Shown: piece after piece, positions 20,436-43,665 of the stretch
Layout of the letters: each line of letters begins with the position of its first letter
Position numbering within the stretch: position 1 is the first letter of the stretch
Source of the DNA: an uncultured archaeon
GTDB taxonomy: Archaea; Asgardarchaeota; Lokiarchaeia; Sigyniarchaeales; SOKP01
Direction of reading: 5' to 3'
NCBI GenBank assembly: GCA_964632315.1
Contig: CAZWEM010000009.1
Location: 1-64,000, forward strand
DNA: 64,000 bases
Notes under the pieces: model-generated
Told to the model about the DNA's origin: nothing
The model's input: the letters and a program-made list of their open reading frames with translations, nothing else
Database searches by the model: none
Translations under genes and position numbers: made by a program

Positions 20436-23400
20436 TTATTGTTTTCGTTTCTGAATTACTACTGCTCCAATAATAGAAATTATCATGAAAACCAAAAACC
20501 AATTTCCAAATGGAATTGCTGGAGGAGGTTCATCATCAGGAGGTTCCTCTTGAATTGTTATTTTTACTGTATCAGTAGCATAATTTCCAGCAAGATCAGT
20601 AAAATTAATGGTAAAGAAGTGCTCTCCTATTGATAATCCTTCTGGAATGGTATAGCTCACATCACTTCCACTGGTCCAAGAAATTGGTCCTGTTAGAATA
20701 CCATGACCTTGATGTTCTATAGTATATGTGGCAGGATGAGCATCAGTTGCTATCCATATGAGACAAACATCTGTATATCCCGAAAAGCAGCTATAATCTT
20801 CTGGAACATCAGTGATTATAGGAGTTATGGAATCACCTACAGTGAATTTGACAGTATCTGTAATGAAATTTTCAAAACTATCCGTGTAATTGATGATATA
20901 ATAATAATCTCCTATTGGAAATCCGTCTGGTATCGTATAATTAACTGCAACACCACTAGACCACGCTGTTGGTTCTACTACAACTCCAGAACCTTGAAGT
21001 TCAATAGTATAATTATACGGGTTATCATCAGTTGCATTCCATTGTAAATTGATGCCCGTGTAACCTAATTCAACAGCAATATCACTTGGAGCATCTGTAA
21101 TAATAGGATCTTCTATATCTTGGACAGTTAACTTTACAGTATCTTCGATAAAGTGTCCATAATCATCAGTGAAATTTATAGTGTAAAAATATTCTCCTAC
21201 ACTAAATCCCTCCGGGATATCATAAATAACAGATATTCCACTAGACCACCCAGTTAAATCTACAACATTTCCAGAACCTTGTAGTTCAATTGTATAATTA
21301 TAGGGATTTTCATCGGTTGCCGTCCATTGAAAAGTTTCGCCAGAATATCCTAATCCAACTATTTTATCGCTAGGAGAAAATGTAATTATGGGATTTTCTG
21401 TATCTTGAACAGTAACATTTACAGTATCAATTGCAAAATTGCCATTATCATCAGTAAAATTGATTGTGTAAGTAAAAGTACCCACTCCTAATCCATCAGG
21501 AATATCATAGGTCACTTCAACTCCACTAGACCAAGAAAATGGACCCGCTACGACTCCAGAACCTTGAAGTTCAATAGTATAATTATACGGATTATCATCA
21601 GTTGCCATCCATATGACATTTTTGTCTGTATAACCACATTCGAGAATCAAGTCACTCGGGTTTTCAGTAATGATTGGATCATCCAGATCTGCTCTCTCTC
21701 TGACTTGAACAACTACCAATCCTTCAGAACGACTAGCAACAAATGCATGATCACCAATTATATCAACTCCGATGGATAGATCTATAGTATCTGAATATAA
21801 TATTGTCGGATTGGCAATACCCACTTGCTTAATATCAATTACTGTTAATCTGTCTCCATCAGCAACGTATGCATAATCACCACTTATATCAACATCAAGA
21901 GCACATGTACCTGCAGTACTTATAGTCGTTGGAGAACTAGGACTTGTTGGATCCGATACATCGATGACAGTTAGACCCGCATTATCGTCTGCCACGTACG
22001 CATAGTCTCCTCTGACCTCTATAGCCCATGCCCAGCCATTAGTATACATTGTAGAATAAGGACCTGGACTGGTAGGGTCGCTGATGTCGAAGATCGCTAT
22101 TCCACCATCCCTATAGGCTACATATGCATAATCTCCATCGATAAAAACATCGTAAGCATCGTGATCGCCACTTTTGTCCATATATACTGGTGTCCCTGGA
22201 CTGGTAGGATCACTGATATCGATGATTGCAACCCCTGCACTACCAGAGGCCACATAAGCATAATCTCCACATACATCTATACCGTGTGCATAACCTGATG
22301 TATCCATGTATATTGGAGTTTTTGGATTTGTAGGAGAAGACACATCAATTATCGCCAATCCAGAACCACCATCAGCGATATAAGCCCAGTCCCCATCTAC
22401 CTCAACGTCATTTGAATGCCCTGCGGTATTCTCATAGATGGGTGCTGATGGGGCGAAAGGCTCAATAATAGCCATGACTGCTAGACCTGCAGTATCAGCA
22501 GCGATATATGCAAAAAAACCATCAATATCCACTTTTCTTGCCTCGCCGGCTATAGCTCGACTTGCATATATTACAGGATCTACTTCTACTGATATATCTA
22601 TTATCATTAAACCATGAGTTGTAGGAACAAATCCATAATTTCCTTCTATATCTATTCCTCTTGGATATCCATAACCATTTCCTTGAAATTCTTTATATGC
22701 AATTTCATTTGGAGAATTTGGATACATAATGTCAAAAACAGCCATTCCATAGAGTGTTGCGAGATAAGCATAATCTCCACATATAAAGACATCGTTAACA
22801 GTATAAGAATCCTCATAATCAGGAGATTGGGGATTAATAGGATTAGTCACGTCAATTATTGCCAACCCATAACTTCCATCCGCTACAAAAGCGTTACATC
22901 CATCCAAAAATATAGCTTGAGCAAAACCATCCGTATCCACGCTATAGATAGAAGCAGATGGGTCAGTGGGATTCGTAATATTAATTACTGATAATCCTTC
23001 ATAACCATCGGCAACATAGGCATAATTTCCTCTCACTTCTACACTCCAAGCCCACCCAGAAGTATCCATATAAACGGGCGTTCCTGGATTGGTAGGATCA
23101 CTGATGTCAATTACTGCTAATCCATTAATCTCATCGGCAACATAGGCATAATCACCCTTAACATATACATCCATTGCACATTCAGTATCCATATACACAG
23201 GAGCTCCGGGATTTTCGGGGTCAGAGATATCAATAATTGCCAATCCATCCTCATAGTCAGCGATATATGCATAATTTCCACTCACGTATACAGCTTGAGC
23301 ATCTCCGTATGTATTCCTATAAACTGGTGCTCCTGGATTAGTAGGATCTGTGATATCTATTATCGCTAATCCTTTCCAACCGTCTGCTATGTAAGCATAA

Positions 23401-23812: not shown

Positions 23813-25726
23813 ATGGTAAATGTAAATTATCCTCCTGAAAACATTTACGACCCTTCTGGAAAAGAAAACGCTAATTATGACCACGTTATTCTCTGGATGT
23901 TGTATAATAATGAGGTTTGTAAATGGGGCGATTTTAGCAAAGAACCAATCGAAATTCCTTTAGGAACATTATCTAGACACATGGATCAGTTAAAGCGTAA
24001 GGGGTTTGTCGAAAAAATCTCAAGAGGCAGTTATAAAATTACATTAGAAGGAAAAAAAAAATTTTATGAGCAACTAACTGGAAAAGGAAAAGAGCGAAAG
24101 CTAAATTATCCGCCTGAAATTGTTTTAAACACTCGAAATTACGATCACTGGATTCTCTGGGTGCTCTATAATAATAATTACTGTAAACGATCTCACTTTC
24201 TTGAAAATCCATTAAATATAAACCAATCTTCGTTATCAAAAACCCTCAATTTATTAATTAAAAAAAGATTCATAATAAAAAATGAGGGAAAATATATTAT
24301 TACGACATTGGGAAAATCTAGATACTCAAAGATACTCAAGAATTATGATCTTGACAGACAAACAATATTGGAGGAAGAAACCAAAAGAATAGAAGAGATT
24401 AATAAAAATACAACAAATCTTTTTAATCTCTATAAAGTGAAGGACAAGGAAGTCCAATTCAATTTTCTTAATTATATTCTAAAATTGGATTATGAAAGGG
24501 TAAAATCTTTACTAAAAAATGAAGAACTATTTTATAAAATCATATTATTTTTCGCAATGAATCATCCAAATCAATATCCTCGCTTTATATCTTCAAAAGA
24601 TTTTTCAGATTTATATCGAATTAAAACTACTACGTTAGATTATTATGTTGAAGAAATCTCAGAAGGAAAAATTTATCCCACCAAATTTTTTAAATTAAAG
24701 GGACCTTCAGGGGGAAATTATTATTTTCAAAGCGATGGAAAATTAGGAAAAATGCTTGGAATTATATCTGAAACTCAAATTAACAAGCATGCATATCTGA
24801 ACAAACTCTTCTCAAATATAGAAAGTAAGACCCCAAATATAGATATAAATTTAATTATAACCAGCATCATAGATGAGAGTTGTGAATGCTTATTTCATCA
24901 GGATTTTAAGGAATCCTTAAGCAATTTTATACCTGAATTCATTAATTACTTATCTTATAAAATTGAAATTAAAAAGGAATTAAAAGATACTTACGATAAA
25001 TTAGAAGGAATCATATGGCAGGAATTGTTAATCGCATTTGATTCTCAAATTAATGTAAATTTAAAAAGCCAATATGAAGAAGAGATCGATGACATAGATA
25101 AGGAAATCGCATTAGATCCCCATAATTTAGAATTATATAAATCAAAAATACGAATTTTAATCTACTTTAACCAATACCATGAAATTTTGAAAATATTAGA
25201 CATCATGTTAGAAAAGTTCCCTGAAGAGGAAATAGATCTTATGATGAAAAGAGCATCAATTTATAGAAAAAAGAAAGATCTGAATGTAGGTTTAGAGATT
25301 ATCGAAGGCTTGATCAAAAAGTATCCTGAAAATAATGAACTTCTAAATTTTAAAGCTTTTTGGCTTCAATACATGAATAGACGAGACGAGAGCTTAGAAT
25401 TGATTGAAATGCTTATCAAAAAAGAGCCAAACATGAGTATATATTATGATAATTATGGAGAAATTCTAATGTATTTTGAAGAATATGAAGAAGCAACTAA
25501 GAAATTCTTAAAAGTCCTTCTAAAAGGGAATGAGTGGTATTATTATCAGACCTATATTAAATTAGGAATATGTTATAAAGTACTCAATAAGTTTGATTTA
25601 GCACGGAATAATCTGAAAAAAGGTATAGAATTAATTAAAAAGGAAGACTCAAATCATTCCGAGATTAAGGAAAAATGGTTAGCAATAGCTAATCTTTTTC
25701 TTGCTGAGATTCAATCAAATAAATAA
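23813..25726 (+). CDS. Tandem winged-helix + TPR protein (putative transcription regulator)
   Basis: Two repeats NYPPE...NYDHxILWxLYNN...SxxxxxLxxKxF...GxYxITxxGK; TPRs at the C-terminus. Confidence 0.7.
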   Translation: MVNVNYPPENIYDPSGKENANYDHVILWMLYNNEVCKWGDFSKEPIEIPLGTLSRHMDQLKRKGFVEKISRGSYKITLEGKKKFYEQLTGKGKERKLNYPPEIVLNTRNYDHWILWVLYNNNYCKRSHFLENPLNINQSSLSKTLNLLIKKRFIIKNEGKYIITTLGKSRYSKILKNYDLDRQTILEEETKRIEEINKNTTNLFNLYKVKDKEVQFNFLNYILKLDYERVKSLLKNEELFYKIILFFAMNHPNQYPRFISSKDFSDLYRIKTTTLDYYVEEISEGKIYPTKFFKLKGPSGGNYYFQSDGKLGKMLGIISETQINKHAYLNKLFSNIESKTPNIDINLIITSIIDESCECLFHQDFKESLSNFIPEFINYLSYKIEIKKELKDTYDKLEGIIWQELLIAFDSQINVNLKSQYEEEIDDIDKEIALDPHNLELYKSKIRILIYFNQYHEILKILDIMLEKFPEEEIDLMMKRASIYRKKKDLNVGLEIIEGLIKKYPENNELLNFKAFWLQYMNRRDESLELIEMLIKKEPNMSIYYDNYGEILMYFEEYEEATKKFLKVLLKGNEWYYYQTYIKLGICYKVLNKFDLARNNLKKGIELIKKEDSNHSEIKEKWLAIANLFLAEIQSNK

Positions 25727-25757: not shown

Positions 25758-27452
25758 CTAAGTTCTTCTACGCTTTAATTCATTAATTGCTTTTTCTGCT
25801 AAAAGGATGGCATCAGTATATTTCGATTTCTCCCTTTTAAGGTTGGCTTCAAGTTCGATTGTTTTATTTTGAAGTTCCATTATAATTTCATTGCTTTCAT
25901 CCGAAGAGCCTGGTAAACTTTCTGGATTTTCCATCGTTTCCTTAAGGTAATTGTACTTTTCTTTCCACACGTTTAATTCTGTCTCTAGGTCTTCATATGC
26001 ATCGTCTCCTGTTATACTCGCGATTGATATTTCTTCGCCTTCTTTCACTTGTGATAATCTTTCTTTCAAGGTTTCGATTTCATCTTCCAAATCTTTTATT
26101 TTAACTTTAAGTTCAGCAATTTCATCTAAATAATCAGAAGAAGTTTTAGGAGCGGTAATTTCCTCATATATAGTCTTACCAGTTTCTAATTCATATGAAC
26201 TCTTTCCTCCCAATAAGCGTTCTTTTCTTTTTTGTAGTTCTTCAATGGTTTGTTTTGGTAAAAAGTCTAAAGGATTAAATCCAATTCCACCATGTTGGGT
26301 CGTTCGTTTTCTAATTTTCACAAAAAGTGGAATTCCTTTTACAGCTTCTCCACAAATTATTGCTTCACCTTTATCTAAGCCGGAAATATCATTTCTATTT
26401 CCTCTTGTTAAATCTTCAGCACTGCTTATCGTCACATCTATATCTCTTACATCAGTGAGATTATGAACGATCCACGATCCCGCTTGAGCTCGAATCGTTG
26501 TATCGAGAAGCTGTGGCCTTTGCGTACCTATTACTAAGTTTGCTCCAAATTTTCGTCCTTCCTGTGAGAATAATTTTACAGTTTCACAAGTATCTGTCCT
26601 TTTTTTACCGGCAAATAAATGTGCTTCGTCCAAGAATAGGTAAAACGGAGGGATCTTTCGTGAAGTACTTGATTGATATAACTTTTTTAACAATTTTCCC
26701 GCAATCATTTCTTGAACGCTTAAATCCATACCCCTCATGTTAACAATCGTGCATAAATTAGGTGCTACTATATCAGAAGCTTCTAGAGAGAAAAGATATT
26801 CTACATCAACATCACCACCCTTATTTATTTTCAAATCAGCAAACTCAACAATTTTATCCACAAATTCACTCTGACCTCCTTCCGATCCATCTTCAGTTGC
26901 TCCTACCTTAAGACTTCCATATTCTCCATGTCTATCTAGTATCACTACAGGAATTCCTTTCTTCATGAATTCTTCGCATAAAACGCCCATCGTATATGAT
27001 TTCCCTGACCCACTTTTTCCGGTTATGAAAATTCTCCCAAAATTTTTGACTAGAAGGTTAACATCAAAAGGATATCCAATTAACTTCCCAAGTGCGACGG
27101 ATTCTTCGGGGGGATTTAATATTCCCAACAAATTTTTAATTTGATCTTCTTTAGCCTTATAGACTTCTGCTCCTACTTCAAATGGGCGTTTTGGACGTTC
27201 TCCTAAGACAAGTAAATCAGCTATCATTCCACTAGAATCGCTATACATATCATCTATACTCAAGACATAGTGTGGTCTTTTTCCCTCTTTTTTTTCTCCA
27301 TAAATAACAAGATAAGTATTTCTGTAAACCGTTGGGTCCTCAATTTTCATTGATACTTCATATGCTGTGGTTTTTCCAAATAATCGACCAACGATTTTCT
27401 CCTCTTGGTTATGTATATTTTCACTTTTATCTAAATTATCATCATCAGCCAT
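25758..27452 (-). CDS. HerA/FtsK-family (DUF87) ATPase with C-terminal coiled coil
   Basis: GKSGSGKS Walker A, ILDRHGEY, FLDEAH, EGRKFG, TQRP; HAS-barrel-like N-terminus. Confidence 0.88.
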   Translation of the reverse strand: MADDDNLDKSENIHNQEEKIVGRLFGKTTAYEVSMKIEDPTVYRNTYLVIYGEKKEGKRPHYVLSIDDMYSDSSGMIADLLVLGERPKRPFEVGAEVYKAKEDQIKNLLGILNPPEESVALGKLIGYPFDVNLLVKNFGRIFITGKSGSGKSYTMGVLCEEFMKKGIPVVILDRHGEYGSLKVGATEDGSEGGQSEFVDKIVEFADLKINKGGDVDVEYLFSLEASDIVAPNLCTIVNMRGMDLSVQEMIAGKLLKKLYQSSTSRKIPPFYLFLDEAHLFAGKKRTDTCETVKLFSQEGRKFGANLVIGTQRPQLLDTTIRAQAGSWIVHNLTDVRDIDVTISSAEDLTRGNRNDISGLDKGEAIICGEAVKGIPLFVKIRKRTTQHGGIGFNPLDFLPKQTIEELQKRKERLLGGKSSYELETGKTIYEEITAPKTSSDYLDEIAELKVKIKDLEDEIETLKERLSQVKEGEEISIASITGDDAYEDLETELNVWKEKYNYLKETMENPESLPGSSDESNEIIMELQNKTIELEANLKREKSKYTDAILLAEKAINELKRRRT

Positions 27453-29203: not shown

Positions 29204-29437
29204 TTGAATTATGCCTTGATGATCTCCCAAGTGCAAAAAAAATATATAAAAAATTTTTTAGCTTTGGCTCGAAATTGGAACGAAAAATATTATAAGCAAT
29301 ATATGAAAATACACCTTGATTTTATTAAGAAGAACATTGAATTAATAGCAGCAAAAAATAACGATCCTGAAGTGCAGGAACGCGAATATGTAGTAATGCT
29401 TTCAATATTACCATTAAAAGCCTTATATAATTTTTAA
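29204..29437 (+). CDS. Short hypothetical ORF or gene remnant
   Basis: 77 aa, TTG start, no recognised motif. Confidence 0.3.
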   Translation: MNYALMISQVQKKYIKNFLALARNWNEKYYKQYMKIHLDFIKKNIELIAAKNNDPEVQEREYVVMLSILPLKALYNF

Positions 29438-34486: not shown

Positions 34487-35525
34487 CTATAGTCTCTTAA
34501 TAATTAACTCAGCCATTCTATTTGAGAAGCCCCACTCGTTATCATAGTAGGAAAGTATAAATACTTCATCTTCAATGACTTTAGTCCACATAGAACTAAA
34601 TACAGAACTATGGGAGTTTCCAATAATATCATGACTCACAATAGGATCTTCCACGTAGTCTAATATTCCTTTTAAGGCACCCATGGATGCTTCTTTCATT
34701 TTAGCATTTACTTCTTCAGGAGTGGTTTTCTTTTCAACTATTGCTTTCAAGTCAACTACACTCCCATCTATGGTGGGAACTCTTATAGCAATACCGTCTA
34801 ATTTACCACTGAGTTCAGGAAATACTAAACCAATTGCCTTAGCAGCTCCAGTGGATGTAGGAATCATATTTTGAGCAGCAGCTCTGCCCCTAATCATCTT
34901 TTCAGGTGCACCTGCTCTAGCAATATCCGCTGTAGATTGATCGTTGGTGTATGAATGAATAGTTGTCATCAAACCATATTTGATGTTGAAATTTTCGTTC
35001 AGAACTTTTACAACAGGGGCTAAGCAGTTCGTCGTACATGAAGCATTTGAAATGATTTTATGCTCATCAGTTATTTTATCATCATTACATCCTAAAACAA
35101 CTGTAAAGTCGGGATTTGATGCTGGAGCGCTGATTAATACTCGTTTAGCTCCCGCAGTTAAGTGTTTAGATGCTCCATCTCTATCAGTAAATCTGCCAGT
35201 GGATTCCACTGCAACATCGATATTATTTTGACCATGTGGAAGATTTGCTGGATCTCTTTCTGCTGTTATTGGGATCTCCTTACCATCGATAACTAAAGAG
35301 TGTTCTTTAGCCTCAACTTTTCCTTTAAATTTCCCAAATACGGTATCATACTTTAATGCATAAGCTAGATATTTTGGATCGAAAAGATCATTAATCGATA
35401 CAATATCTATGTCATTCCAGTAGTTAGCGTATACTGCGCGAAAGAAGAGTCTTCCGATTCTGCCGAAGCCATGATTACTCCGTTAGCGAAGAGCTTAACG
35501 GATTTATACTGACTCGTTTCGCCAT
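34487..35525 (-). CDS. gap: Class I (bacterial/eukaryote-type) glyceraldehyde-3-phosphate dehydrogenase, split by a 31-nt intron; join(35504..35525,34487..35472), 335 aa
   Basis: Spliced N-terminus MAKRVSINGFGRIGRLFFRA...INDL...LKYDT; ESTGRF, SNASCTTNCLAP, TGAAKA, YDNEWGFS; (1039-31) nt = 336 codons. Confidence 0.93.
35473..35503 (-). other. Putative BHB-type mRNA intron in gap (31 nt)
   Basis: ATCCGTTAAGCTCTTCGCTAACGGAGTAATC; hairpin plus 4+3/4+3 BHB geometry; removal restores INGFG. Confidence 0.85.
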
Positions 35526-35814
35526 TTTATTTTTTCACCTTTTAAATTATTTAATGTTATTTTTTGTTTTTATGAATTTTCAATTTAAAATTGCATGCTA
35601 GTATGTTTTCGATAGTTTTTTAATTTTCTAGTTATAAATTTTATATTTGATCTCTTCTACCTATACACTTTACTGTTAAAAGTATTGTATTTGGTGTTTT
35701 GATCCATCAAAATTTATCTCTTAATTTAAGAAAATTAGACGCAAGTTTTAATTACTTTTAATTTCAGTTTAAATTCAATTTTTAAATTAAAATTACATTA
35801 AAAAAGAAAAAATT

Positions 35815-40725: not shown

Positions 40726-40880
40726 GAGTCTTCCTTTTTAAAATGCTATTATAATATTATGTATTAATTTCTAAAAAATAAAAATCCTTTTAGTAATTTC
40801 CAAGATAGTAATTACTGGAATGGCTTTAAACTTGGGGGATTAAGGAAAATTCTCTTTAAAAATAAAAATTGGAAAAAAGA

Positions 40881-41753
40881 TTAGATCGATGATTTGGAAT
40901 CGATTTGATACATGATTTTATCATTCAACTTTAACTTTAATAATAATTTTTCTGCTCGTTTTCTATTATACGACCTAAGAGATTCAAGAATAATAATCCC
41001 AGGAAAAACAGAACCTGCTGCTATTAATGGACTTATCATTTCAATTATTATTGTCAAATCAAATCCGCTTCTTTCAACTGATGAGGAAACCCATGATATA
41101 ATCATCACGGCTAAGTTATACATAAATCCTACTCCTGCGAATCCTTTAATCACCTTATATAACGGTCTACTTGCTAAATCTGCGCTCATGAATTGAAAAC
41201 CATTGATTTTTTTTGCTTTAATTATTCCCACATCATTCATTACATATATAGGAATCACAATTAAAACAGATGGGATGGTTATTATCCATGCGATTTGCCA
41301 CAATGTTTCAATATCTGGAATATAATACGTTTCTGAAGGACTCACGCTTCTCATGAATTCAATAATAGATTTTTGACCTGCTAAGGTAAAGCACACATTT
41401 CCGACAAAGAAACCTAAAATTATAGATCTCGCCCAAATCTTGCGAAATAAGCTTGATTTACTTAATGGTTTAATTTCTACTAGTCCAATCTTGCTTTTCT
41501 TAGAGAGAAATTTTGTATATATTCTCATGAAAATTGGAGAGATGAAATATATTGCTATAATACCGAATATCGTTCCTGTTATTCCAGGCATTACGACAGC
41601 AAATATCCATTCCACTTGTACATTTCCAGGAGTAATGAAAAAACCTTCTGGGTATGTTATGGGATACGGCATTAAGGAAAACGCGATGATTGAGAGTGTT
41701 ATCAAAAAGATATATAAAATTATAAAAAATAAATAGGTCTTGTTTAGTTTCAT
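40881..41753 (-). CDS. Hypothetical membrane protein
   Basis: 290 aa, about 6 hydrophobic segments. Confidence 0.65.
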   Translation of the reverse strand: MKLNKTYLFFIILYIFLITLSIIAFSLMPYPITYPEGFFITPGNVQVEWIFAVVMPGITGTIFGIIAIYFISPIFMRIYTKFLSKKSKIGLVEIKPLSKSSLFRKIWARSIILGFFVGNVCFTLAGQKSIIEFMRSVSPSETYYIPDIETLWQIAWIITIPSVLIVIPIYVMNDVGIIKAKKINGFQFMSADLASRPLYKVIKGFAGVGFMYNLAVMIISWVSSSVERSGFDLTIIIEMISPLIAAGSVFPGIIILESLRSYNRKRAEKLLLKLKLNDKIMYQIDSKSSI

Positions 41754-43197: not shown

Positions 43198-43665
43198 TCA
43201 TGTCTTGGCTTTTTTCGCTGCCGTATCAGGTCGTAAGGGACTGGGACCTAATTCACGTATGGTTTTATCAAATGCAGTCGCTTCTTGTTGAAATTTTTGG
43301 CCTTCTGCTGCGGTACAATATCCCAAGTGGATTCTATTTTCACTAAGTCCCATTGATTTGAGTACTTCCTTGGTATATTCGACTTCTCGATACGCAAAAT
43401 AATTTCCAGTCTCATAATCGCATTCTTTAGGGTATCAACCAACAACCATTACTCCATCCGCCCCTCGTCCAAAGGATCTCATTATTAAATCAGAATCGAC
43501 CCTTCCCGTACAAGGCACTAATATCACGCGAATTGAGGTTGGATATTGAGCTCTAATTGTGCCTGCCATATCTGCACTGCCATATCCTCATTTTTAGAAG
43601 ACTTTCGAGATGAAAGTCTCATTCCAACACAGGAAGGCAATGATCTTTATATCTTCTTCTGCCAT
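43198..43665 (-). CDS. mvhD: MvhD/VhuD [2Fe-2S] hydrogenase subunit, selenoprotein (U16, U67), split by a 30-nt intron; join(43622..43665,43198..43591), 145 aa
   Basis: [47 protein letters not shown]...GADGVMVVGUYPKECDYETGN...ELGPSPLR; TGA at 43588-43590 and 43435-43437 fall at Cys/Sec positions; missed by the ORF track. Confidence 0.92.
43592..43621 (-). other. Putative BHB-type mRNA intron in mvhD (30 nt)
   Basis: TGAGACTTTCATCTCGAAAGTCTTCTAAAA; 9-bp stem, central helix TTGG/CTAA, 3-nt bulges AAT and AAA; in-frame TAA. Confidence 0.88.

What the first reader, a model, noticed from the sequence alone, without database searches (positions are those of the whole stretch)
35473..35503. 31-nt BHB intron inside the GAPDH NAD-binding motif (I-N-G-F-G)
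Minus strand reads ATG GCG AAA C[GAGTCA][GTAT][AA^A][TCCGTT-A-AGC TCTTC GCT-AACGGA][GTAA][TC^A][TGGCTT]C GGC AGA. The exon stem GAGTCA/TGGCTT pairs with two G-U pairs; the central helix has 3 of 4 pairs (one G-A mismatch, relaxed BHB); both bulges are 3 nt. Unspliced, the frame stops after 16 codons (MAKRVSINPLSSSLTE*). Spliced, it gives MAKRVSINGFGRIGR and a complete 335-aa enzyme. The ORF-track start at 35209 would lose the N-terminal Rossmann motif.
Basis: partly seen in the sequence, partly recalled or inferred. Interest (0 to 1): 0.92.

Follow-up and report, generated by a model that had tools for sequence, protein, structure and literature searches.

The report
tRNA-type mini-intron splitting Asgard GAPDH gene
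The only GAPDH gene of this Asgard archaeon is interrupted after codon 8 by a 31-base insert shaped like a tRNA intron, so the enzyme can most likely be made only after the tRNA-splicing enzymes cut and rejoin the mRNA, a process published so far for one archaeal coding sequence (cbf5).

Summary
On the minus strand, ATG(35525)-MAKRVSIN is followed by 31 nt (35503-35473). These stop the frame after 16 codons. A 327-codon GAPDH frame (GFGRIGR...) follows.

The 31 nt are a clean insertion. It is absent from 51 of 54 fetched relatives' genes, from about 100 family genomes, and from the closest metagenomic alleles (95% identical).

It folds as h(6 bp)-bulge(3)-H(3 of 4 pairs, one G.A)-bulge(3)-h'(7 bp). 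Cutting after the second base of each bulge restores MAKRVSINGFGRIGR exactly. Chance of this geometry is about 1e-3 or less.

This is the genome's only GAPDH gene. dN/dS against the nearest intronless allele is 0.046, with no own-branch acceleration. The genome encodes a catalytic EndA, a His-less EndA paralog and RtcB.

A structure-blind comparison with a relative found ten further 21-33-nt inserts. They include the sole uS8 gene (shared by four species, with compensatory changes) and the sole LeuRS gene. All ten show the same bulge-helix-bulge at the alignment-defined junction.

Best reading: a recently gained, endonuclease-spliced mRNA intron (about 0.85). I obtained no RNA evidence. This scan has noted the same kind of intron in other Asgard genomes.

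The parts
35535..35539 (-). Shine-Dalgarno-like GGTGA, 9 nt upstream of the ATG
   Evidence: The same GTGA(A/T)A element precedes the ATG in the relatives' intronless genes.
35504..35525 (-). Exon 1: ATG plus 7 codons plus the first base of the Asn codon (MAKRVSI-N)
   Evidence: Relatives encode MAKRV(A/S)IN directly fused to GFGRIGR.
35473..35503 (-). 31-nt BHB intron (ATCCGTTAAGCTCTTCGCTAACGGAGTAATC). It carries the in-frame TAA at 35475-35477.
   Evidence: Clean 31-column gap in alignment A1 against five intronless relatives. Single copy in the genome. Geometry nH=3, h3=7, h1=6.
34487..35472 (-). Exon 2: last two bases of the Asn codon, then GFGRIGR...KRL and the stop (327 codons plus stop)
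   Evidence: SCTTNC catalytic Cys and TIHSYT His motifs are present in P0001. dN/dS is 0.03-0.05.
35510..35515 (-). Outer exon-exon helix h, 5' strand GAGTCA
   Evidence: Pairs with 35466-35471 (TGGCTT): 6 pairs, two of them G-U.
35466..35471 (-). Outer exon-exon helix h, 3' strand TGGCTT
   Evidence: The minimum-free-energy fold recovers 5 of these pairs.
35506..35509 (-). Central helix H, exon strand GTAT
   Evidence: Pairs with intron GTAA (35475-35478): U-A, A-U, U-G, plus an outermost G.A mismatch. The conserved uS8 intron has a G.A at the same position.
35475..35478 (-). Central helix H, intron strand GTAA
35503..35505 (-). 5' bulge AA|A; predicted cut between 35504 and 35503
   Evidence: The cut after the 2nd bulge base follows the published BHB rule (PMC2738675, read).
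35472..35474 (-). 3' bulge TC|A; predicted cut between 35473 and 35472
   Evidence: The cut restores AAT GGC TTC GGC = N-G-F-G.
35479..35502 (-). Intron hairpin h': 7 bp, 1-nt bulge, 2 bp, 5-nt loop TCTTC

Best explanation
The 31 nt at 35473-35503 (minus strand) are a bulge-helix-bulge (BHB) intron in the pre-mRNA of the type I GAPDH gene of an Asgard (Promethearchaeota) archaeon.

Proposed mechanism:
1. The first ~76 nt of the transcript fold so that exon 1 pairs with exon 2 (GAGUCA/UGGCUU) and with the 3' end of the intron (GUAU/GUAA), while the intron body forms a hairpin.
2. This presents two 3-nt bulges, 4 helix positions apart, to the tRNA-splicing endonuclease.
3. The endonuclease cuts after the second base of each bulge.
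4. RtcB joins the exons and probably circularises the intron.
5. The spliced message encodes the full 335-aa enzyme beginning MAKRVSINGFGRIGR. The unspliced message yields only a 16-aa peptide.

The intron was gained recently, after divergence from the nearest sampled relatives. It sits at a site whose exon sequences could already pair.

Shown: the insertion, its geometry, exact restoration of the protein, selection on the gene, presence of the enzymes, and the same kind of insert in essential genes. Inferred: that cutting and ligation take place on this RNA.
For: Insertion and restoration:
- The insertion is clean and private to this genome. Alignment A1 shows a 31-column gap against five relatives, including the 95%- and 94%-identical metagenomic alleles.
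- 51 of 54 fetched gap genes have M...IN fused in frame to GFGRIGR. None of the other full-length matches in 135 family genomes is interrupted at this site: all have open frames of 333 aa or more.
- Cutting at the canonical BHB positions gives MAKRVSINGFGRIGR. This equals the N-terminus of a relative (L005). It also makes exon 1 fill Gp_dh_N profile positions 1-6, upstream of exon 2's start at position 7.
- Geometry is H 3/4, stem 7 bp, exon helix 6 bp. Chance is 8e-4 to 9e-4 even when half of the structure is granted.

The gene is needed and maintained:
- It is the only Gp_dh_C match in a 99.5%-complete genome.
- dN/dS is 0.046 at dS 0.64 against the nearest intronless allele. Own-branch dN is not raised, and this gene has the fewest private amino-acid changes (2) among six close sequences.
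- There is no stop or frameshift in 327 codons.

Machinery:
- There are two EndA paralogs. One is closest to the Aeropyrum and Sulfolobus catalytic subunits. The other lacks the catalytic His.
- Asgard EndA is reported as the (alpha-beta)2 type with the L1 loop, associated with broad specificity (PMC5829648).
- RtcB is present.

The class exists in this lineage (structure-blind test):
- tblastn between 919 kb of relative G018 and this genome, plus one gap gene flagged for internal stops, gave 10 alignment-defined stop- or frameshift-bearing inserts of 21-33 nt.
- All 10 have H of at least 3/4 (7 have 4/4) with 3-nt bulges at a placement that gives the alignment-defined product. H>=3 with a stem of 4 or more was met by 7/10, against 1/10 for a mirror-image decoy.
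- They include the only uS8 gene and the only LeuRS gene.
- The uS8 intron is shared by four species, with two compensatory pair changes and free loops.
Against: - There is no RNA or protein evidence.
- The intron is private to one metagenome-assembled genome. This intron therefore has no covariation or population support of its own.
- The central helix has a G.A mismatch.
- A pseudogene younger than about 0.07 substitutions per site could still look intact.
- My motif-first genome scans found no excess of BHB-shaped, ORF-restoring sites over a mirror decoy. I attribute this to lack of power, not absence.
Confidence: 0.85

Rival explanations
1. Very young pseudogene. A 31-nt hairpin-containing insertion has just inactivated gap and only resembles a BHB by chance. 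The cell would then rely on other routes, such as non-phosphorylating or ferredoxin-dependent glyceraldehyde-3-phosphate oxidation.
For: The insert is private to one genome. There is no RNA evidence. An intact downstream frame is compatible with an age below roughly 0.07 substitutions per site (my estimate from stop-creating mutation rates). The central helix is imperfect.
Against: The BHB geometry at exactly the restoring cut sites has a chance of about 1e-3 or less. This is the only GAPDH gene in the genome. There is no relaxation of constraint on the own branch. Inserts of the same size and shape sit in the sole uS8 and LeuRS genes, which cannot be pseudogenes. The insert is not a repeat or mobile-element footprint: it is single copy.
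Confidence: 0.1
2. Assembly or sequencing artefact, or a minority allele fixed in the consensus of the metagenome-assembled genome.
For: The genome is a 119-contig assembly with 8.6% estimated contamination. No independent assembly of this species could be fetched.
Against: An artefact would not create a 31-nt hairpin with exon-complementary ends at the one position that restores the frame. Equivalent inserts occur in independent assemblies of other species: G075, G018, G016, G143, G004, G003.
Confidence: 0.03
3. Translational bypassing. Ribosomes take off at AAU (Asn8) and land on the AAU 28 nt downstream, as in phage T4 gene 60, with no RNA splicing.
For: A matching AAU codon lies at 35474-35476, and a hairpin with a stop lies between the two AAU codons.
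Against: Landing there would give ...SIN-H-GFGRIGR, with one extra residue inside the conserved I-N-G-F-G motif. None of 51 relatives has it. In uS8 the analogous hop would delete two conserved residues, whereas BHB cutting restores YIGEFERYDDGR exactly. Bypassing is not known in archaea (my own knowledge).
Confidence: 0.02

Closest known systems
BHB intron in the cbf5 (pseudouridine synthase) pre-mRNA of Crenarchaeota (Watanabe 2002; Yoshinari 2006; Yokobori 2009, PMC2738675)
   Same: It is an intron inside a protein-coding sequence with a (relaxed) bulge-helix-bulge at the exon-intron borders. Cuts fall between the 2nd and 3rd bulge residues. The host has a hetero-oligomeric EndA of broad specificity. 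Gain and loss are lineage-specific.
   Different: The phylum differs (Asgard/Promethearchaeota), and so does the gene (central-metabolism GAPDH). The intron is only 31 nt and sits at codon 8. It is private to one species rather than shared by orders. Here it is one of several such introns per genome, whereas cbf5 was a single case. cbf5 splicing was shown experimentally; this one was not.
[quoted passage not shown]
   Same: Same predicted enzymes and the same motif. The evolutionary pattern of repeated, often terminal-branch gains at sites able to form a BHB is also the same. Intron-bearing tRNA genes are predicted in this genome.
   Different: The substrate is an mRNA. The exon helices are made of codons rather than tRNA arms. 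The intron must be removed to the exact base to keep the reading frame, and it carries an in-frame stop. That preprint does not treat protein-coding genes.
Unconventional cytoplasmic splicing of HAC1/XBP1 mRNA in eukaryotes (Ire1 endonuclease plus tRNA ligase/RtcB)
   Same: It is spliceosome-independent removal of a short intron from an mRNA, by a protein endonuclease acting on paired stem-loops and joined by a tRNA-type ligase. The reading frame changes on splicing.
   Different: The endonuclease (Ire1) and the recognition motif differ. HAC1/XBP1 splicing is a regulated stress switch. Nothing here shows regulation. This comparison rests on my own knowledge and review text.
Type I (bacterial/eukaryotic-type) glyceraldehyde-3-phosphate dehydrogenase
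   Same: Gp_dh_N and Gp_dh_C domains and the SCTTNC active-site motif are present. The spliced length is 335 aa, and identity to annotated Asgard type I GAPDHs is 75-95%.
   Different: The gene is interrupted. All other sampled orthologues at this site are continuous.

Membership tests
Archaeal endonuclease-spliced (BHB) intron | Two 3-nt bulges on opposite strands separated by a 4-bp helix | tested here: met
   Bulges are AA|A and TC|A. The four helix positions are GUAU/GUAA with 3 pairs and one G.A, a slightly relaxed form. The conserved uS8 intron has the same G.A position.
Archaeal endonuclease-spliced (BHB) intron | Flanking helices h (exon-exon) and h' (intron-intron) | tested here: met
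   h is 6 bp and h' is 7 bp plus 2 bp.
Archaeal endonuclease-spliced (BHB) intron | Cutting after the 2nd base of each bulge yields the functional mature RNA | tested here: met
   The product MAKRVSINGFGRIGR... is collinear with 51 intronless orthologues.
Archaeal endonuclease-spliced (BHB) intron | Host encodes the splicing endonuclease and an RtcB-type ligase | tested here: met
   Two EndA paralogs are present: one catalytic and crenarchaeal-like, one lacking the catalytic His. RtcB scores 568 bits.
Archaeal endonuclease-spliced (BHB) intron | Excision seen in RNA (spliced junction, circular intron) | not testable with these tools
No spliced-form protein is in the protein collection.
Archaeal endonuclease-spliced (BHB) intron | Structure maintained in evolution (covariation) | tested here: inconclusive
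   The gap intron is private to one genome, so there is nothing to compare. The sister case in uS8 shows 2 compensatory pairs in 4 species, with 98% of cells paired against 29-39% when the partners are slid.
Type I GAPDH | Gp_dh_N and Gp_dh_C domains, NAD-binding GxGxxG at the N-terminus, catalytic Cys | tested here: met
   Pfam E-values are 3e-32 and 9e-58. GFGRIGR and SCTTNC are present in P0001. The INGFGRIGR strand-loop is complete only after removal of the 31 nt.
Pseudogene | Relaxed constraint, further disabling mutations, or a functional copy elsewhere | tested here: not met
   dN/dS is 0.046 with no own-branch excess. There is no further stop or frameshift. There is no second GAPDH gene.
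Repeat or mobile-element footprint | Other copies of the insert in the genome | tested here: not met
   blastn-short finds only chance 12-16-nt matches.

The most novel reading that the evidence does not exclude
The gap intron is one recent product of an ongoing process. In this Asgard family, protein-coding genes acquire 21-33-nt BHB micro-introns species by species, and these are removed by the tRNA-splicing machinery.
- Density is tens per genome: at least 6 in 5 genes among 841 comparable ORFs here, not counting 5'-terminal ones such as gap.
- They occur in indispensable genes (uS8, LeuRS, topoisomerase VI subunit B).
- A gene can carry two of them around a 36-nt micro-exon.
- In this genome they are strongly 5'-biased.

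That would make routine, enzyme-catalysed mRNA splicing a normal part of gene expression in the closest archaeal relatives of eukaryotes. It would also give a living system in which intron gain can be watched. A bolder, untested extension is that splicing competes with translation initiation, because the BHB starts 8 nt after the ATG, and so gates GAPDH synthesis.
Probability: 0.6. Interest if true: 0.85.

Novelty: new member of a known kind. Interest (0 to 1): 0.7.

Why it matters
Since 2002, published work has shown endonuclease splicing of only one archaeal coding sequence (cbf5).

Here a central-metabolism gene, and by the same test the only uS8 and LeuRS genes, cannot be translated as written in an Asgard archaeon.
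- Practical consequence: gene callers truncate or split such genes (gap is called from 35209 without its NAD-binding motif). Metabolic reconstructions of Asgard genomes will therefore miss or mis-annotate genes.
- Conceptual consequence: interrupted protein genes with obligatory RNA splicing, gained repeatedly and recently, exist in the lineage from which eukaryotes arose. They use enzymes (EndA/TSEN, RtcB) that eukaryotes inherited.
- The gap intron is useful because it is young. The intronless state is preserved in close relatives, so the insertion site and the pre-existing exon complementarity can be read directly.

Tried and rejected

2. Independent assemblies of the same species. An exact look-up of the neighbouring transporter found nothing on record. 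The metagenome scan gave one close relative at 88% and otherwise distant GAPDHs. The protein search gave nothing above 95% identity.

3. Repeat or MITE origin. No second copy of the 31 nt or its flanks exists in the genome. Rejected.

4. Motif-first genome census. I scanned both strands for BHB geometry combined with ORF restoration and compared the result with a mirror-image decoy.
- Thresholds of 50, 60 or 100 codons on each side.
- Support from paralogue alignments across the junction.
- A fully zipped hairpin.
- A Shine-Dalgarno-marked short first exon.
In every version real and decoy counts were about equal. Noise from gene junctions and off-frame ORFs swamps a few dozen true sites, and only 1 of 4 known sites passed the last filter. 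I therefore make no claim of genome-wide enrichment from these scans. I replaced them with the structure-blind, homology-first census.

5. Two census events were rejected as non-introns. C10:9454 is a natural gene boundary (stop then ATG) where the relative has a fused gene. C10:6415 and G018 C3:64157 are low-identity alignments.

6. Alternative starts. The ATG at 35472-35470 opens only a 21-codon off-frame ORF (read). GTG at 35209 loses the Rossmann motif.

7. Translational bypass. It would add or delete residues in conserved motifs (see rival explanations).

8. Literature. Six searches found no report of BHB introns in Asgard protein-coding genes. The library is incomplete, so this is not proof of absence.

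Full report
**What is there.** On the minus strand an ATG at 35525-35523, preceded by GGTGA, opens MAKRVSIN and then runs into PLSSSLTE and a TAA. From 35470 a different frame reads GFGRIGRLFFRA... for 327 codons to a stop at 34487-34489. That product matches Pfam Gp_dh_N from profile position 7 onward and the whole of Gp_dh_C. It carries the SCTTNC and TIHSYT motifs. The first conventional start codon in that frame is GTG at 35209, which would give a 240-aa protein without the NAD-binding motif. Removing 35503-35473 (31 nt) joins AA to AT GGC TTC GGC and gives MAKRVSINGFGRIGR..., 335 aa.

**It is an insertion, and it is private.** I searched 41 relatives and then 135 genomes of the family with the exon-2 protein.
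- All other full-length matches have open frames of 333 aa or more through the N-terminus.
- Of 54 fetched genes, 51 read M...IN fused in frame to GFGRIGR. MAKRVAIN is the commonest form, and one relative has exactly MAKRVSIN.
- The nearest sequences anywhere are metagenomic genes 95, 94 and 93% identical, all 334-335 aa.
- Aligning their DNA with the window shows a clean 31-column gap between ...ATAA and ATGG... (alignment A1).
- The names attached to relatives place the organism in the Promethearchaeota (Asgard).
- The insert has no second copy in the 4.45-Mb genome, so it is not a repeat or a mobile-element footprint.

**Geometry.** In BHB terms the order is: outer helix GAGUCA/UGGCUU (6 pairs), central helix GUAU/GUAA (U-A, A-U, U-G and one G.A), 5' bulge AA|A, intron hairpin (7 bp, 1-nt bulge, 2 bp, loop UCUUC), and 3' bulge UC|A.
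- The published rule is cleavage between the second and third bulge residues (PMC2738675). That is exactly the placement that restores the protein.
- Three placements give the same spliced sequence because of an AT repeat, and the canonical one is among them.
- With the intron fixed and 400,000 random exon contexts from this genome, a central helix of at least 3/4 together with a 6-bp outer helix occurs at 7.8e-4.
- With the real exons and random 31-mers, at least 3/4 together with a stem of 6 or more occurs at 9e-4.
- The exon helix already exists, in a weaker G-U-rich form, in intronless relatives (read). The site was therefore predisposed.

**Is the gene alive?**
- It is the only Gp_dh_C match in a genome estimated 99.5% complete. 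The same search finds both bacterial- and archaeal-type GAPDHs in all 14 control genomes.
- Against the nearest intronless allele, dS is 0.64 and dN/dS is 0.046.
- Distances to outgroups are no larger for this gene than for its sister. It has the fewest private changes at otherwise invariant columns (2, against 3-9).
- A neutral 981-nt frame in this AT-rich genome would be expected to acquire a stop within roughly 0.07 substitutions per site (my estimate). A pseudogene would therefore have to be very young.

**Machinery.**
- Two EndA homologues are present. The first is most similar to the catalytic subunits of the Aeropyrum, Sulfolobus and Pyrobaculum heterotetramers.
- The second aligns to the first but has Ser/Ala where the first has the catalytic His. 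This is the pattern of an alpha/beta pair.
- Asgard EndA has been described as (alpha-beta)2 with the L1 loop linked to broad substrate range (PMC5829648).
- RtcB is present.

**Does this lineage splice mRNAs at all?** This is what decides between a functional intron and a lucky-looking lesion, so I tested it without using the motif.

First, the family search flagged one other gap gene with internal stops (G075, another genus). It has 30 extra nt inside S-W-Y-D-N-E-W, with central helix GUGG/CCAU (4/4) and bulges UA|A and AU|U. The canonical cuts restore WYDNEW.

- The genome's only uS8 gene is in two frames separated by 29 nt, with GGCG/CGCA, AA|A and a 9-bp hairpin. Cutting gives YIGEFERYDDGR.
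- Across the genus, 36 genomes have a continuous gene. Three others (G016, G143, G004) carry the same intron with free loop sequences and two compensatory stem changes (C-G to U-A, A-U to G-C). A fifth genome has a different 29-nt insert 6 nt upstream.
- Four sequences are too few for statistics (70 of 500 shuffles reach the observed value). But a frame-breaking insert kept in the sole uS8 gene of four species cannot be a pseudogene.

Third, I fetched 919 kb of relative G018. I ran its 977 ORFs against this genome, and this genome's 5180 ORFs against the 919 kb. I kept collinear alignments interrupted by 10-250 extra nt or by stop-containing gaps.
- After removing a gene boundary and two low-identity alignments, six inserts in five genes remain in this genome.
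- These are uS8 (29 nt), LeuRS (30 nt, within ...PMGYD^SFGLPAENAA), a molybdopterin oxidoreductase (30 nt), topoisomerase VI subunit B (29 nt), and a hydrogenase small-subunit-like gene with two inserts (31 and 29 nt) around a 36-nt micro-exon.
- Three inserts remain in G018 (30, 33 and 21 nt).
- Gene names are from Pfam. LeuRS is the only strong match to its editing domain.
- With the G075 case, that makes ten blind inserts. All ten have a central helix of at least 3/4 (seven have 4/4) with 3-nt bulges at a placement that yields the alignment-defined product. Seven also have an uninterrupted stem of 4 or more. A mirror-image decoy passes once.
- The gap intron (3/4, stem 7, outer helix 6, 31 nt, bulge AA|A) sits squarely in this class.

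**What did not work.** Four versions of a motif-first genome scan gave equal counts for true and mirror geometry. The ORF-restoration criterion is too easily met at gene junctions and in off-frames, and only one of four known sites survived the strictest filter. I draw no conclusion from these scans. No RNA data could be reached.

**Mechanism and caveats.** The most likely course is:
1. The BHB folds co-transcriptionally within the first ~76 nt.
2. EndA cuts at both bulges.
3. RtcB ligates the exons.
4. The joined message is translated.

Because the outer helix begins 8 nt after the ATG, an initiating ribosome and the BHB probably exclude each other. This is an inference. The unspliced message ends after 16 codons at the intron's TAA. 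Excision on this RNA is inferred, not shown.

A very young pseudogene (about 0.10), an assembly or allele artefact (about 0.03) and ribosomal bypassing (about 0.02) remain as rivals. Bypassing would insert a His into I-N-G-F-G.

**Comparison and novelty.** The closest known case is the cbf5 pre-mRNA intron of Crenarchaeota. It shares the motif, the cut rule, the hetero-oligomeric enzyme and lineage-specific gain and loss.
- The differences are the phylum, the gene, the very small size, the position at codon 8, the recency, and the company of several similar introns per genome.
- The preprint on Asgard tRNA introns reports repeated terminal-branch gains at BHB-capable sites but does not treat protein genes.
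- None of six literature searches found a report of such introns in Asgard coding sequences.
- Earlier notes of this scan describe the same kind of intron in other Asgard genomes. Some report spliced RNA. I did not check those.

I file this intron as a new member of a known kind. The population-level picture would be the more novel result.

Noticed in passing
window 43592-43621 (minus strand): A second 30-nt BHB insert lies in this window, in the mvhD-like gene about 8 kb away. It has central helix TTGG/CTAA (4/4), bulges AA|T and AA|A, a 9-bp hairpin and an in-frame TAA. I verified the geometry only.
   Followed up: partly
L136 about 1252-1281 (G075 contig 90, gap gene of another genus): An independent 30-nt BHB intron sits in a gap gene at a different site, inside S-W-Y-D-N-E-W. 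The search tool flagged it for internal stops. The canonical cuts restore WYDNEW.
   Followed up: yes
G000 contig 35, 14462-14490 (L151); L153, L156, L168, L157: The only uS8 gene is split by a 29-nt BHB intron. The intron is shared by four species of the genus, with two compensatory stem changes. A fifth species has a different 29-nt insert 6 nt upstream, which suggests a second gain or intron sliding.
   Followed up: yes
G000 contig 41 ~26254-26283; contig 24 ~24131-24160; contig 47 ~22501-22529; contig 11 ~40820-40890: A structure-blind comparison found BHB micro-introns in the sole LeuRS gene, a molybdopterin oxidoreductase and topoisomerase VI subunit B. It also found two introns (31 and 29 nt) around a 36-nt micro-exon (CWGCHQSLLNAH) in a hydrogenase small-subunit-like gene.
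   Followed up: yes
G018 contig 17 at about 377453, 23475 and 37246 (L193-L228): The relative has its own BHB micro-introns of 30, 33 and 21 nt. The 21-nt one has almost no intron stem (bulge-helix-loop-like) and restores the C-X5-R P-loop of a low-molecular-weight phosphatase/ArsC-like protein.
   Followed up: partly
G000, all introns found: Strong 5' bias. The six blind introns lie after codons 12, 24, 19, 41, 47 and 87 of genes of 127-1040 codons. gap is at codon 8, mvhD at about 15 and the EF-2-family paralogue at about 75. Detection by tblastn is, if anything, biased against short first exons. The three G018 introns do not show the bias.
   Followed up: partly
G000 contig 25 ~29359-29388: An EF-2-family paralogue (one of several translational GTPase genes) has a 30-nt insert with TCAG/CTGA (4/4), bulges AT|T and AA|G, and an in-frame TAA before EQERGIT.
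   Followed up: partly
L149 42-2209: The closest relative (95% identical protein) carries two tandem gap genes of 339 and 335 aa. This genome has one gene, with a divergently transcribed MFS transporter upstream.
   Followed up: no
window 35541-35565 versus relatives (alignment A1 columns 70-94): The 5' leader of gap has about 22 extra nt (TAACATTAAATAATTTAAAAG...) between the conserved promoter-like block and the Shine-Dalgarno-like motif. The five closest relatives lack them.
   Followed up: no
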